Of a DNA stretch of 64,000 nt, positions 12,001-15,000 are shown piece after piece. Source of the stretch: Perna viridis. Its lineage: Eukaryota. Numbering within the stretch: the first letter of the stretch is position 1; each line of letters opens with the position of its first letter. The DNA lies in contig CM074522.1 in the NCBI GenBank assembly GCA_037379345.1, positions 3,162,001-3,226,000 on the forward strand, given 5' to 3'. Position numbers: made by a program.

Positions 12001-15000
12001 AATGAGTTCAATTTAAAACAATCGACGTTAAGCTGATCATGTTCCACTCATGGTCACGAACATTGCCTCTTATATATATAATCAAAAGAATGTAATCCAG
12101 GGACAAAGACCCGACATGGAAAACAGACATACACAACAAAGAATATACAGTAACTAAAATCATACATACAAAGTAACAAAAGCAAATGAGCAACTCGGAC
12201 TCCACTAAAAACTGGGAGAAGGGTCTGAAAATTGCCAACGATGTTAGAACTGTCAAATTTGCGAAGCAAATTATTTTGGTCGTTCCCTCCGCGGGACTCG
12301 AACTCATACCCCTGTGACATCTATGGCAACACCGCCTGCACAAAGTCCAGCGCCCTGGACCACTCGGCCAGCTAGGCTATATAAAAATATAGATTTCGCT
12401 GGCCAGGTCATTCCTCCTCGTAGGATTAATCTAGGACTGTAACTTAGTACACGATATATGGTAGTACGGGACAGTTCATCTAGGTGTTATTATGTAGGAT
12501 AGAGGATCAAATTAATGATGCATGTCACAACAAATCAATATTATACAACGTCTCAGAATGTGACGACTCTATTCGTTACATTGCTCCATTGGATCAAATT
12601 GATACAGGGAAGATAACGTTGACTTATAGAAGGGTCTGAAAAATTCCCAACGATGTTAGAACTGTCAAATTTGCGAAGCAAATTTTCTTTGGTCGTTCCC
12701 TCCGCGGGACTCGAACTCGTACCCCTGTGACATCTATGGCAACACCGCCTGCACAAAGTCCAGCGCCCTAGACCACTCGGCCAGCTAGGCTATATAAAAA
12801 TATAGCTTTCGCTGGCCGGGTCATTCCTCCTCGAAGGATTAATCTAGGACTGTAACTTAGTACACGATGTATGGTAGTACGGGACAGTTCATCTAGGTGT
12901 TAGGACGCTTACCCTACCGGTGCAGCTGGTCCATGCTCCCAGTTTTTAGTGGAGTCCGAGTTGCTCATTTGCTTTTGTTACTTTGTATGTATGATTTTAG
13001 TTACTGTATGTTCTTTGATGTGTATGTCTGTTTTCCATGTCGGGTCTTTGTCCCTGGATTACATTCTTTTGATTACCGCTATAACCTTGGTTCCCTTGAT
13101 TACTCTTGAAAAATACGTCCACCACACTGAACAAATATGTTCAGTAATGTAAAAATTCCAGCATTTTGTAAACATCTTCCTCTGTATATTTGGAAGATGA
13201 TTTGGAATTATTTCTTACAAAGTATGAGGAATCTCTATCAAGAACTATATATTTGTATCTAGGTGTACCATTTTTTTTTTTGAAAAACAACGATGTTTTT
13301 AAATCGGGATTTTAACTGAGTATGGGGAATAGAAGTATACAGTGTTGAAAAATCGTAGGTTTTAATGCTATTATATTCAGATGTATCAAATCCCCGAAAT
13401 TAGGATTGTTTAAAGATAATACGTCATCTATATAGCGGAAACTGAGATTGAAGGATCTAGCCAAACGATATTCTTTCTTTCTGGTCAGATAGCTATAATG
13501 TCAGCCTCATAAAAGTGAAGGAATAGGTCAGCAAGTAAAGGAGCACAATAAGTTCCCACTGGAATGCCGAACGTTTGTTGACTTTTTATGAGCATCTCGG
13601 TGGATGTTTCTAGAAAAGCAGAGGACGCTTACCCTACCGGTGCACCTGGTCTACGCTTCCAGTTTTTGGTGGAGTCCGAGTTACTCATTTGCTTTTGTTA
13701 CTTTGTATGTATGATTTTAGTTACCTAAGTTGCAGCATAAACTTTGTAAGAATTCTACAGTCACTTTAATATTCAATTACAGAATGTAACCAGTTGTTGT
13801 CGATAAGTAAAACGGGTGTTTTGGTATTGAGAAAATGTTTTGAAACTGATTCACGATCTACAATTATTCTTTTCCTCCACTTTTGCGAGCATGAAAGTGC
13901 TATTTAACGACGATTGGATTAAATAAATGGATAATTAGAACTCGTAATCTGAAATGACAGGTTCAAAAACGAACATGTAATGTGCTGATAACCAAAGTAA
14001 TACTTATTTGGACTGCATTTTATGAAACATTCGCAATTTGTTTTCATTGTTTTGGTATCAGAACACACAGGAATGCCACATGCTTTTAGCAAAAAATATG
14101 AAATTTGTGCATTTTCAGACGTCGTCGTCTATTATTGGGAACTATATCGACATTATTTTGACAAGAACTATTAGTAAAATATGACTGATACTCCGCGTAA
14201 CCTATCGGTAAGTTGGTTATTTGCAATCGCTAACATCTACATTTTATGATCAAGTTGCAATACTTGCATTTAGTTATTATGGATCTGCTCACGTTCATTT
14301 CTCTCGCTCCAGTGGTGTAATATCTATTTTGCAAGATTTGTGTTAAACTTGACTTTATTATGAATCGGATAAGTGTTCGGTAATTTTGTTATTACTTTTA
14401 TTTACAGTGTGATAGTTGTGTTTTTAATAATGCTTTTGTATATTATAGATATATTGCTTATTTTTTAAGTCGTGTAGTTTTCATTGCAGTTATTTGAAAT
14501 TTGAATTGAATTGATCTGGTTTTGTTAGATTCTGTTGTTCATATATATATTTATCTTTGTCAGGGCATACGGCCGTAAAATGCATGATATTTAGTCTCTT
14601 TTTAAGCATCTCAGGACCAATACAGCAAGGTTCAGGATGTACGCCTTGAGAATATTCTCCGTTCTGTTCGTAGTTTCAACAGGTAATAACATACTTTTCT
14701 TTTTATATGCACCAGACTTTCTTTCGGAGGACTATGTTGTATTATGCCGCTGTCCATCCGTTCGTCTCTCCATCCATTTTTGCACATTTTTCTTATAATG
14801 TTTCTTTGCATTAAAATTATTTTTTGGCACGTTAAGGGGTTTCGTGTAAGAAAGATGAATCTTAATCATGATAAATATTTGTGTCATTTGTTATATTCAT
14901 ATTTATTTTGTCTAAACTCATCAAATTAAAGTGTTGAAATCTTAATTACCTCCACGATCCAGTGTTCACCATTAACTTTTAGTGGTAGGTACTTTTGATA

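What the first reader, a model, noticed from the sequence alone, without database searches (positions are those of the whole stretch)
12080..13107. Retrozyme-like cassette: 1.7 copies of a 411-bp tRNA-headed unit welded between two divergent PLE ends
Seen: a - strand PLE fragment (12080-12217) and a + strand PLE fragment (12902-13107) of the same sub-variant (ccatgtcggg) both join the tandem unit at their 5' truncation points, with 1-2 nt microhomology. The unit is circularly permuted, with the tRNA-like A/B boxes in the middle, and has no tail or TSD, unlike a normal SINE. Established: metazoan non-LTR retrozymes are short tandem repeats expressed as circular RNAs and are proposed to use PLE machinery. 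Inference: this locus records a PLE RT template-switching onto a circular or multimeric Pol III RNA. That would be physical evidence for the parasite-helper link, and for a tRNA-promoter-bearing retrozyme family.
Basis: partly seen in the sequence, partly recalled or inferred. Interest (0 to 1): 0.75.

Follow-up and report, generated by a model that had tools for sequence, protein, structure and literature searches.

The report
tRNA-like repeat trapped between PLE ends
Two head-to-head, 5'-truncated ends of a Naiad-type Penelope-like retrotransposon enclose 1.7 copies of a 411-bp repeat that has tRNA-type promoter boxes but no ribozyme, so it looks like a capture by reverse transcriptase, not a retrozyme.

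Summary
A 411-bp unit (12217-12627) is followed by a 274-bp partial copy (12628-12901), 96.4% identical. They lie between two inverted, 5'-truncated copies of one retroelement 3' end, which I call R. The junctions show 2-nt and 1-nt microhomology.

- The tRNA-like A/B boxes are on the minus strand.
- The left arm is not 3'-truncated. Its last 33 nt lie at 11634-11666, separated by a later 359-bp insertion flanked by a 54-bp direct repeat.

R is the 3' UTR of an RT element whose closest full-length relative carries the Naiad-clade PLE motifs. Naiads lack hammerheads and typically insert as inverted 5'-truncated pairs.

The unit has no hammerhead, no other Rfam ribozyme, no similarity to R and no unusual self-pairing. 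T4-T5 runs bracket its Pol III boxes. It therefore fails the retrozyme definition, and a multimeric Pol III RNA is unlikely.

Seven unnamed database ORFs show the same unit elsewhere, in tandem, inverted and 5'-truncated forms.

Best reading (about 0.5): one Naiad insertion event in which cDNA synthesis ran onto a unit-containing RNA. DNA-level rearrangement remains a serious rival, because the neighbouring sequence is also permuted. No eukaryotic genome or transcriptome could be searched.

The parts
11634..11720 (-). Detached 3'-terminal piece of the left PLE arm (R columns 120-206), ending at the canonical element terminus at 11634
   Evidence: BLAST 95.4% to 13021-13107. Gapless reconstruction with 12134-12218. 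Carries the TCGG variant.
11721..12079 (.). Later 359-bp AT-rich insertion (28% GC) ending in (TA)n, flanked by a 54-bp direct repeat (11667-11720 and 12080-12133). Not part of the original cassette.
   Evidence: No similarity to the unit. No other copy in the window.
12080..12218 (-). Left PLE arm: Naiad-type 3' UTR fragment, R columns 35-174, 5'-truncated at 12218
12217..12627 (-). Full 411-bp unit (U1), sense on the minus strand. Order in sense: 137-nt part, 110-nt part, tRNA-like part, 65-nt tail. 42% GC.
12628..12901 (-). Partial unit (U2, 274 bp), lying upstream of U1 in sense and 5'-truncated inside the 110-nt part
12294..12370 (-). A box (12370-12360) to B box of U1. 'ACGACCA' follows at 12283-12277. 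T5 at 12387-12383 and T4 at 12231-12228 bracket the predicted Pol III transcript.
   Evidence: Not a foldable tRNA.
12707..12783 (-). A box to B box of U2. T5 runs at 12800-12796 and 12643-12639.
12902..13107 (+). Right PLE arm: R columns 1-206, 5'-truncated at 12902, canonical 3' end at 13107
13103..13580 (-). Older Naiad RT fragments forming the right flank: aa 454-547 (13381->13103) followed by aa 546-609 (13580->13390). Together they are a circular permutation of one target split at Q546.
   Evidence: tblastn of P0018. Translations.
13579..13724 (+). Another 5'-truncated R copy, starting 43 nt upstream of R column 1 and head-to-head with the RT fragment. GTTG microhomology at 13577-13580.
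   Evidence: Junction read.

Best explanation
The cassette 11634-13107, leaving out the later 359-bp insertion and one copy of its 54-bp flanking repeat (413 bp in all), is one insertion unit of a Naiad-type Penelope-like element. It is of the known 'inverted pair of 5'-truncated copies' kind. Both outer ends are genuine element 3' termini, as expected if each end of the broken target primed reverse transcription.

Between the two 5' ends lie 1.67 head-to-tail units of an unrelated 411-bp repeat family (U) that carries tRNA-derived A and B boxes. U has the same polarity as the left arm.

The most likely sequence of events, all of it inferred, is this. The left-arm cDNA left the PLE RNA at R column 35. 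It either continued on a U-containing RNA or was copying a read-through U-PLE chimeric transcript all along. It copied one full unit and 274 nt of the next. It was then joined to the second cDNA through 1 nt of microhomology.

The template was at least 685 nt long and ran through two T-runs per unit. It was therefore probably not an ordinary Pol III product and need not have been circular.

Shown: the anatomy, the PLE identity of the arms, the absence of a ribozyme, and the existence of U elsewhere. Inferred: the RNA-level capture and its single-event nature.
For: (1) Arms.
- 10 of the 14 R fragments in the window end within 2-3 nt of one common 3' terminus, while their 5' starts vary. This is the retroelement 5'-truncation pattern.
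- R follows the stop codon of the RT ORF on the same strand at 26259-26605 and at 11100-10707.
- The RT matches P0018 at 71-83% identity. P0018 has DCSC, GPKY and ADKA, and it ends with the RT thumb.
- Craig et al. 2021, section 6 (read in full), lists the CxC motif and DKA in place of DKG as diagnostic; its Fig. 3B legend marks CxC and GxKF/Y in the diagnostic region. The same section describes the lack of hammerheads, heavy 5' truncation and 'an inverted 5'-truncated copy immediately adjacent'.

(2) Both arms reach the canonical terminus, at 11634 and 13107. They share TGTCGGG, which 0 of 10 other copies have. They also share ACTGTA; 1 of 9 other copies has that G.

(3) The junctions show 2-nt and 1-nt microhomology.

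(4) The arms differ at 5 of 172 positions and U1/U2 at 10 of 275. The two rates cannot be told apart (Fisher p 0.79), which fits one age.

(5) U is a real family. The search of protein representatives gave 9 hits at E <= 1e-3. I dropped 2 (P0028 and P0033) because they are internally repetitive proteins that match only about 20 residues. Among the remaining 7:
- 5 run past the tail. Of these, 4 (P0025, P0026, P0029, P0031) continue straight into the 137-nt part.
- P0029 spans more than one unit.
- P0025 and P0030 hold head-to-head inverted pieces.
- P0026, P0031 and P0032 begin inside the tRNA-like part, next to non-U sequence.
This mix of tandem, inverted and 5'-truncated forms is the architecture that Craig et al. 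describe for PLE-made insertions. They also describe it for the non-autonomous Chlamys elements ('multicopy head-to-tail insertions'; passage seen).

(6) The same paper states that PLEs retrotranspose host genes in trans (passage seen).
Against: - Only one locus could be examined. None of the 5 external copies that extend past the tail shows the U-to-R junction, so neither a donor locus nor a recurring chimera is shown.
- There is no TSD.
- U shares nothing with the PLE 3' end. Described non-autonomous PLE partners do share sequence with their helper's ends.
- The right flank is itself a permuted duplication of an older insertion site, and a 54-bp duplication sits in the left arm. All four local duplications have the same divergence (chi-square 2.16, df 3, p 0.54). 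A burst of DNA-level template switching could therefore have built the whole region.
- One external R-U neighbourhood among 7 ORFs (P0031) is about what R's density predicts. My estimate is roughly 12% per 400 nt, from 14 fragments in 64 kb, so no enrichment is shown.
- The external ORFs are short and unnamed. The 'microsatellite-like' flanks were read from amino-acid strings only.
Confidence: 0.5

Rival explanations
1. U is a retrozyme-like element transcribed by Pol III and present as a circle of about 411 nt or as a multimer. The PLE RT switched onto it and went 1.67 times round (rolling circle).
For: - The copy number is not a whole number (1.67) and the ends are permuted.
- A and B boxes occur in every unit.
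- Tail-to-head continuity is seen in 4 of 5 external copies.
- The unit size (411 bp) and GC content (42%) fall within the ranges given for metazoan retrozymes (150-450 bp, below 50% GC; PMC7229834, passages seen).
- U1/U2 divergence equals the divergence between the arms, as expected if both unit copies were identical when made.
Against: - No hammerhead or other ribozyme family.
- T5 and T4/T5 runs in each unit on the sense strand should stop Pol III after about 155 nt.
- The junction lies 10 nt past the T run, not at it.
- The sense strand is not unusually self-paired (z -0.77; antisense z -2.28).
- No similarity to the PLE end.
- No known route to a circle without a ribozyme, and no RNA data.
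Confidence: 0.08
2. Two steps. An ordinary inverted Naiad pair, with arms abutting head-to-head, formed first. Later a partial tandem of U was inserted at the centre of that near-perfect 172-bp palindrome. The insertion came either by retroposition in trans or as filler during repair of a break at the fragile palindrome centre.
For: - Abutting inverted 5'-truncated pairs are described as typical for Naiads.
- External U copies show variable 5' truncation and the arrangement [truncated unit][full unit] (P0026, P0031), as in the window.
- The U array ends at the same unit position (...CCCTTCT) where P0027 leaves U. This would fit a defined U 3' end.
Against: - It requires the insertion to fall exactly at the junction of the two arms.
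- The divergences do not separate two ages.
- That palindrome centres break is general knowledge. Nothing here tests it.
Confidence: 0.15
3. A DNA-level complex rearrangement (replication template switching or end joining with templated filler) in a nest of PLE fragments. The tandem U duplication, the inverted R duplication, the permuted right flank and the 54-bp repeat would all be products of one such burst, with no reverse transcription of U involved.
For: - Four separate duplications lie within 2.1 kb, with microhomology of 1-4 nt at the junctions and statistically equal divergence.
- The right flank is an exact circular permutation of one insertion site, which a simple retro-insertion does not produce.
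- P0030 shows a sense-antisense-sense zigzag of about 10-residue pieces. I read this as template switching; no call tests whether it was on DNA or on RNA.
Against: - Both arms end outward exactly at the element's canonical 3' terminus. A random DNA breakpoint would seldom hit that position twice.
- The left flank is not an inverted copy of the right flank (sequences read).
- The arms share variants absent from the other copies in the window.
Confidence: 0.2
4. Assembly artefact: a false join through the abundant R repeat.
For: Craig et al. 2021 warn that tandem/inverted PLE structures cause assembly problems. The neighbouring sequence is permuted.
Against: The paired copies are not identical (arms 5 of 172, units 10 of 275), so they are not a collapsed or duplicated read path. 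The junctions are clean single-base transitions.
Confidence: 0.05

Closest known systems
Naiad-clade Penelope-like elements and their tandem/inverted insertion units (Craig, Yushenova, Rodriguez, Arkhipova 2021, PMC8557442)
   Same: - The RT sits at the C-terminus of the ORF.
- The closest full-length relative carries the CxC, GxKY and DKA motifs.
- No hammerhead.
- Heavy 5' truncation.
- An inverted pair of 5'-truncated copies with the element termini facing outward.
- TSD not discernible.
   Different: In the described units the inverted copy abuts the next PLE copy directly. Here 685 bp of a foreign tandem repeat lies between the two 5' ends. No N-terminal GIY-YIG domain was seen in the window or in P0018.
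Metazoan non-LTR retrozymes (Cervera and de la Pena 2020, PMC7229834; preprint 10.64898/2026.07.22.740005)
   Same: Short tandem repeat of a few hundred bp, low GC, physically linked to a PLE, no LTR/PBS/PPT.
   Different: No hammerhead ribozyme, which is the defining feature. No similarity to the PLE terminus. No marked self-pairing. Circular RNA untested.
Schistosome Sm-alpha / Sj-alpha SINE-like tandem repeats (as summarised in PMC6765202, passages seen)
   Same: Tandem units that carry a Pol III-type promoter inside the unit rather than at its start. A monomer cut from a multimer would therefore keep the promoter at its 3' side.
   Different: Those elements carry an active hammerhead that cuts the multimer. 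U has none, and it has T-runs that should prevent a Pol III multimer.
Chimeric retrocopies made by RT template switching, such as the U6-L1 chimeras of mammals
   Same: The retroelement 3' part is fused, in the same orientation, to an unrelated cellular RNA sequence at the element's 5' truncation point, with short microhomology.
   Different: The helper is a PLE, not L1. The captured sequence is 1.67 tandem units rather than one small RNA. A second, inverted PLE arm is present. There is no TSD.
tRNA-derived SINEs of bivalves (PMC4758252 and PMC11481361; search listings and abstracts only)
   Same: tRNA-derived A and B boxes.
   Different: - The tRNA-like part is internal, starting about 247 nt into the unit.
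- The sequence upstream of it is conserved in relatives (P0029).
- There is no LINE-derived or A-rich tail and no TSD.
- The organisation is tandem.

Membership tests
Non-LTR retrozyme | Type I hammerhead ribozyme in each unit | tested here: not met
   No Rfam family at gathering score in the window. No ribozyme family at E <= 10 in 11400-13900. No CUGANGA core on either strand of 11500-13800 (the core motif was recalled from memory).
Non-LTR retrozyme | Short tandem repeats (150-450 bp), GC below 50%, no LTR/PBS/PPT | tested here: met
   411-bp unit, 1.67 copies. GC 42%. Ranges taken from PMC7229834.
Non-LTR retrozyme | Expressed as a small, highly self-paired circular RNA | not testable with these tools
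   No RNA data. Folding is only a weak proxy: sense z -0.77, antisense z -2.28.
Non-LTR retrozyme | Sequence relationship to a PLE terminal region (shown for Xenopus in the 2026 preprint) | tested here: not met
   Local alignment of U, both strands, against the long and short R copies scores no better than shuffles: 142-195 of 200 shuffles scored at least as high.
Naiad-clade PLE (for the arms) | PLE-type RT with the CxC, GxKF/Y and DKA motifs | tested here: inconclusive
   The motifs are seen in the relative P0018, which matches the window's RT fragments at 71-83%. The window's own copies do not retain that part of the ORF.
Naiad-clade PLE (for the arms) | RT C-terminal and GIY-YIG endonuclease N-terminal | tested here: inconclusive
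   The ORF stops just after the RT thumb, and R follows, so there is no C-terminal EN. No GIY-YIG was found: Pfam finds only a weak RVT_1 match in P0018. The window was not scanned for GIY-YIG; only 17 short stop-free frames were sent to Pfam.
Naiad-clade PLE (for the arms) | 5' truncation, inverted 5'-truncated neighbour, no hammerhead | tested here: met
tRNA gene | Cloverleaf recognised by tRNA finders | tested here: not met
   ARAGORN finds none at default settings or at three relaxed settings. At -ps80 with introns it made three calls in 12000-13200, two of them Gln with odd introns over the tRNA-like stretches. No Rfam tRNA match at E <= 10. The fold is no better than shuffles.
tRNA-derived SINE | Pol III A and B boxes | tested here: met
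   Exact pattern matches at 12294-12370 and 12707-12783 (-); none in 100 shuffles.
tRNA-derived SINE | tRNA head at the 5' end, a LINE-related or A-rich 3' tail, TSDs, dispersed monomers | tested here: not met
   The head is internal. Upstream parts are conserved in P0029, and tail-to-next-unit continuity is seen in 4 of 5 external copies. There is no tail or TSD.
Non-autonomous PLE partner (MRC1/Chlamys type) | Head-to-tail multicopy insertions | tested here: met
   Window; P0029. Criterion from PMC8557442.
Non-autonomous PLE partner (MRC1/Chlamys type) | 3' end similar to that of the autonomous family | tested here: not met

The most novel reading that the evidence does not exclude
U is a ribozyme-free, tRNA-box-bearing tandem retroelement that is mobilised in trans by Naiad PLEs, the hammerhead-less PLE clade. 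This locus would then have caught the hand-over from helper RNA to parasite RNA. It would be the Naiad counterpart of the retrozyme/PLE pairing. It would also show that PLE-style tandem/inverted amplification needs neither a ribozyme nor a shared 3' end.
Probability: 0.2. Interest if true: 0.7.

Novelty: new variant of a known kind. Interest (0 to 1): 0.45.

Why it matters
How PLEs integrate is poorly understood, and no in vitro system exists (Craig et al. 2021, passage seen). Junctions like these are among the few records of what the enzyme does at the 5' end of a copy.

A foreign tandem repeat held between two PLE 5' ends shows that PLE insertion units can carry unrelated sequence. If U proves to be mobilised regularly, Naiads would have a non-autonomous partner of a new type. 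That would help explain how tRNA-related tandem repeats spread in invertebrate genomes.

The retrozyme-PLE link itself is already proposed in print, and this locus adds nothing to it, because U is not a retrozyme.

Tried and rejected
- TRF found no array at the locus. I relied on the repeat finder and BLAST instead.
- Pfam on 8 short RT-frame fragments named no RT family in any of them. The RT was identified through P0018 instead.
- The search for homologous proteins with the 78-aa U frame found nothing among longer proteins and only P0030 and P0031 among proteins of similar length.
- None of the 24 hits to the RT fragment carried a name or a Pfam domain.
- A scan of genome contigs with a 20-mer from U gave 11 bacterial MAG loci. 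They match over 20-22 nt only and are unrelated.
- A full-text search for one R and one U motif found no paper. Searches for tRNA-related satellites in bivalves (followed up in PMC5874043) and for a SINE or non-autonomous partner of Naiads found no description of such a family. This covers only the library searched.
- I considered that the 359-bp insert or the 413-bp spacing of the two left R pieces might be a third, degenerate unit. I rejected this because the insert has no similarity to U.
- I considered that U could be the 5' part of the PLE. I rejected this because of its polarity and because a truncated R, not the ORF, follows it.

Not checked:
- No eukaryotic genome or RNA collection was on hand. 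Copy number, other junctions, empty sites and expression of U therefore stay unknown, and the organism was not determined.
- Supplements are closed. The supplementary files of PMC8557442 (Naiad consensus sequences) and PMC7229834 (mussel retrozyme sequences) might show whether R or U matches a described family.
- Nothing in the window looked human, and there are no N stretches.
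Full report
WHAT IS THERE

The window is AT-rich eukaryotic DNA with no N. At 12217-12627 lies a 411-bp unit, which I call U. A second, partial copy follows at 12628-12901. The two are 96.4% identical, with 8 substitutions and 2 one-base indels. U occurs nowhere else in the 64 kb. 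TRF did not report the array.

On both sides of U lie copies of a repeat that I call R, numbering its columns from 12902 (1) to 13107 (206). The right arm, 12902-13107 (+), covers columns 1-206. The left arm, 12079-12218 (-), covers columns 35-174. Over the 140 nt they share, the arms differ at 2 positions.

THE ARMS ARE PLE 3' ENDS, OF THE NAIAD KIND

R has 14 fragments in the window. Ten of them end within 2-3 nt of one common terminus (...GATTACTCTT), while their 5' starts are scattered. In five copies the homology continues 22-100 nt upstream of column 1.

In two copies (26259-26605, and 11100-10707 on the minus strand) R follows the stop codon of a decayed ORF on the same strand. That ORF ends ...QKFYG.H..L...YGVSICT..DLF. 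A 62-aa fragment of the same ORF family at 13315-13500 (-) retrieved 24 unnamed proteins. The longest, P0018 (751 aa), aligns to window fragments at 71-83% identity. Pfam gives it only a weak RVT_1 match (E 4e-4, below the gathering score). It ends with the RT thumb and contains DCSC, GPKY and ADKA.

Craig et al. 2021 (PMC8557442; section 6 read in full) name the CxC motif and DKA in place of DKG as diagnostics of the Naiad clade of Penelope-like elements. The legend of their Fig. 3B marks CxC and GxKF/Y in the diagnostic region. According to that paper, Naiads have an N-terminal GIY-YIG and a C-terminal RT and lack canonical hammerheads. They are heavily 5'-truncated, and they 'often' carry 'an inverted 5'-truncated copy immediately adjacent'. 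The paper also says they dominate bivalve genomes (passage seen).

I did not see a GIY-YIG domain, so I call the clade assignment probable, not proven. I did not determine the organism.

THE LEFT ARM IS COMPLETE AT ITS 3' END

The left arm seems to stop 32 nt short of the terminus. However, 11634-11720 (-) is a further R piece covering columns 120-206, and 11667-11720 repeats 12080-12133 with one mismatch. Take out the 359-bp AT-rich stretch 11721-12079 together with one copy of that 54-bp repeat. The two pieces then form a 172-nt arm. It aligns to columns 35-206 of the right arm without a gap, with 167 of 172 matches.

So a later insertion, flanked by a 54-bp duplication, split the arm. The original cassette ran from 11634 to 13107, and both of its outer ends were canonical element termini.

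The arms share TGTCGGG; the detached piece has TGTCGGA. None of the 10 other copies covering that site has it. The arms also share ACTGTA.

JUNCTIONS

On the minus strand, U ends ...CAGACCCTTCT and R continues CTCCCAG. The CT at 12217-12218 could belong to either sequence. On the plus strand, U ends ...GGTGTTA and R starts AGGACG. The A at 12902 could belong to either. The cassette has no TSD.

WHAT U IS

On the minus strand each unit contains TGGCCGAGTGG, followed about 55 nt later by AGTTCGAGTCC. The first is a perfect A box and the second matches the B box at 10 of 11 positions; both consensus sequences are recalled. The combined pattern occurs only at these two places in the window and in none of 100 shuffles. 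ACGACCA follows the B box.

U does not contain a tRNA. ARAGORN finds none at default settings, nor at three relaxed settings. At -ps80 with introns it called three candidates in 12000-13200. Two are Gln with odd introns, on the minus strand over the two tRNA-like stretches. The third is an undetermined one on the plus strand. Rfam has no tRNA match at E <= 10. The 113-nt stretch folds no better than shuffles.

In sense, the unit reads: a 137-nt part, a 110-nt part, the tRNA-like part, and a 65-nt tail.

The sense strand has a T5 run 13 nt before each A box, and a T4 (U1) or T5 (U2) run 129 nt after it. A Pol III transcript from these boxes should therefore be about 155 nt long. It would not include the 137-nt and 110-nt parts. 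The U/R junction lies 10 nt beyond the T4 run.

U IS NOT A RETROZYME

- Rfam finds nothing at gathering score in the window.
- It finds no ribozyme family at E <= 10 in 11400-13900; all 7 weak matches there are to unrelated families.
- The invariant CUGANGA core, recalled from memory, is absent from both strands of 11500-13800.
- U has no similarity to R on either strand.
- The unit's sense strand has z = -0.77 and the antisense strand z = -2.28 against shuffles. It is therefore not the highly self-paired rod described for retrozyme circles in PMC7229834 (passages seen).

U ELSEWHERE

A 78-aa stop-free frame spanning the U2/U1 boundary (12556-12789, minus) was scored against 1.84 billion representative proteins. 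Nine scored E <= 1e-3. I set aside two, P0028 and P0033, because they are internally repetitive proteins that match only about 20 residues.

I mapped the other seven back to the window by tblastn.

- Five extend past the tail. Four of these (P0025, P0026, P0029, P0031) run straight on into the 137-nt part. The 'unit boundary' is therefore not a terminus in those copies.
- The fifth, P0027, leaves U within 3 nt of the point where the window's array meets R. It continues in codons that suggest TA/TG-rich sequence. This is an inference from amino acids.
- P0029 has the 137-nt part on both sides of the tRNA-like part, about 400 nt apart. It is a tandem at another locus.
- P0025 holds an antisense piece directly upstream of a sense piece. 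The antisense piece gives three colinear matches (E 0.17, 4e-4 and 0.047). The sense piece scores E 6e-28.
- P0030 shows a short sense-antisense-sense zigzag at the A box.
- P0026, P0031 and P0032 begin inside the tRNA-like part, next to non-U sequence.
- P0031 has an R 3' end and a piece of the R upstream region on the same strand, just before its truncated U. By my own estimate, one such neighbourhood among seven is about what R's density predicts.
- None of the five copies that pass the tail shows the window's U-to-R junction.

All seven are short, unnamed ORFs. The tool for listing their cluster members was not available.

HOW IT MOST LIKELY AROSE

Both arms point outward with intact termini and inward with truncated 5' ends. 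That is what results if each end of a broken target primes reverse transcription of PLE RNA. It is also the arrangement described as typical for Naiads.

U has the polarity of the left arm. Read on the minus strand, the left half is [partial U][full U][R columns 35-206]. This is the order expected of a cDNA that started at the PLE 3' end and then continued on a U-containing template.

That template could be a separate U RNA reached by a template switch. It could equally be a read-through transcript from a donor locus where a truncated R sits in a U array. I cannot separate the two. Either way the template ran through two T-runs per unit, which argues against an ordinary Pol III product. Nothing requires a circle.

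The arms (5 of 172) and the two units (10 of 275) have diverged equally (Fisher p 0.79), which fits a single event.

THE MAIN DOUBT

The surroundings are rearranged too. tblastn with P0018 places aa 454-547 at 13381->13103 and aa 546-609 at 13580->13390. The right arm's terminus (13107) abuts aa 547. The 5' end of the next R copy (13579) abuts aa 546, with GTTG shared. These are the two boundaries of one simple insertion into an older RT fragment, but they appear in swapped order, as if a unit that already contained the insertion had been duplicated in tandem.

Add the 54-bp repeat, and four duplications lie within 2.1 kb. Their divergences cannot be told apart (chi-square 2.16, df 3, p 0.54). 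A burst of DNA-level template switching is therefore a real alternative. Its weakness is that both arms end exactly at the element terminus.

COMPARISON AND NOVELTY

The arms and their inverted layout are known biology. A foreign tandem repeat between the two 5' ends is not described in the passages and sections I read. My searches also found no tRNA-related partner of Naiads.

The closest analogues are as follows.
- Metazoan retrozymes have the same size, tandem organisation and PLE association, but they are defined by a hammerhead.
- The schistosome Sm-alpha repeats are tandem, have a Pol III promoter inside the unit, and carry a hammerhead (PMC6765202, passages seen).
- The non-autonomous Chlamys elements form head-to-tail multicopy insertions and share their helper's 3' end (passage seen).
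- Template-switch chimeras of L1 are a further analogue; this one is recalled, not looked up.

U fails one defining feature of each family. It may still work like a PLE-dependent repeat.

The proposal that PLEs mobilise retrozymes is already published (PMC7229834; preprint 10.64898/2026.07.22.740005, abstract and sections 14 and 16 read). This locus does not add to it.

VERDICT

The retrozyme analogy is wrong, and the claim of a circular Pol III RNA is unsupported.

Interest is moderate (0.45). This is one neat junction in a rearranged repeat nest, plus thin outside evidence that U behaves like a PLE-style tandem/inverted repeat.

Noticed in passing
window 13103-13724: Two minus-strand pieces of an older Naiad RT (aa 454-547, then aa 546-609 of P0018) form an exact circular permutation of a target split at Q546. 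The right arm's 3' end and the next R copy's 5' end are the two boundaries of one simple insertion, but in swapped order. This suggests a tandem duplication of a unit that already held the insert.
   Followed up: partly
window 11667-12133: A 359-bp AT-rich insert ending in (TA)n is flanked by a 54-bp direct repeat, which is unusually long for a TSD. The start-to-start spacing of the repeat (413) equals the U period (411-413). The insert has no similarity to U, so the equal spacing may be chance.
   Followed up: partly
window 7576-8091 (-), 14986-15510 (+), 50647-50846 (+): A further repeat of about 520 bp, 93-97% identical between copies, containing a 132-135-aa open frame with no Pfam match. 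Two inverted copies bracket a 6.9-kb segment that includes the cassette.
   Followed up: partly
window 25178-48146 (+): Exon-like open frames with immunoglobulin domains (41115-41525, Ig_3 E 5.5e-11; weaker matches at 25178 and 42562) and a fibronectin type III domain (47766-48143, E 6e-5, just below the gathering score). This is probably a cell-adhesion-type host gene whose introns are full of PLE fragments.
   Followed up: partly
window 45493-46318: Open frames of 128-249 aa on both strands made of a repeated motif of about 13 residues (for example LTNTWVLTLVREY). This is a minisatellite, not a gene.
   Followed up: no
window 20985-21132: A simple 5'-truncated R copy whose upstream flank reads ...SGVPQGS in frame. 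I recall this motif from LINE-type RTs, and the frame appears to resume after the R terminus. It shows what an ordinary R insertion looks like here.
   Followed up: no
window 10982-11057 (-): A 76-bp R 3' fragment nested just after the stop codon of the longer, older copy at 10707-11100. This is another PLE-into-PLE insertion.
   Followed up: no
proteins P0025 and P0030 (unnamed database ORFs): Relatives of U from other loci contain head-to-head inverted pieces of the tRNA-like part. P0030 zigzags sense-antisense-sense within about 30 residues.
   Followed up: partly
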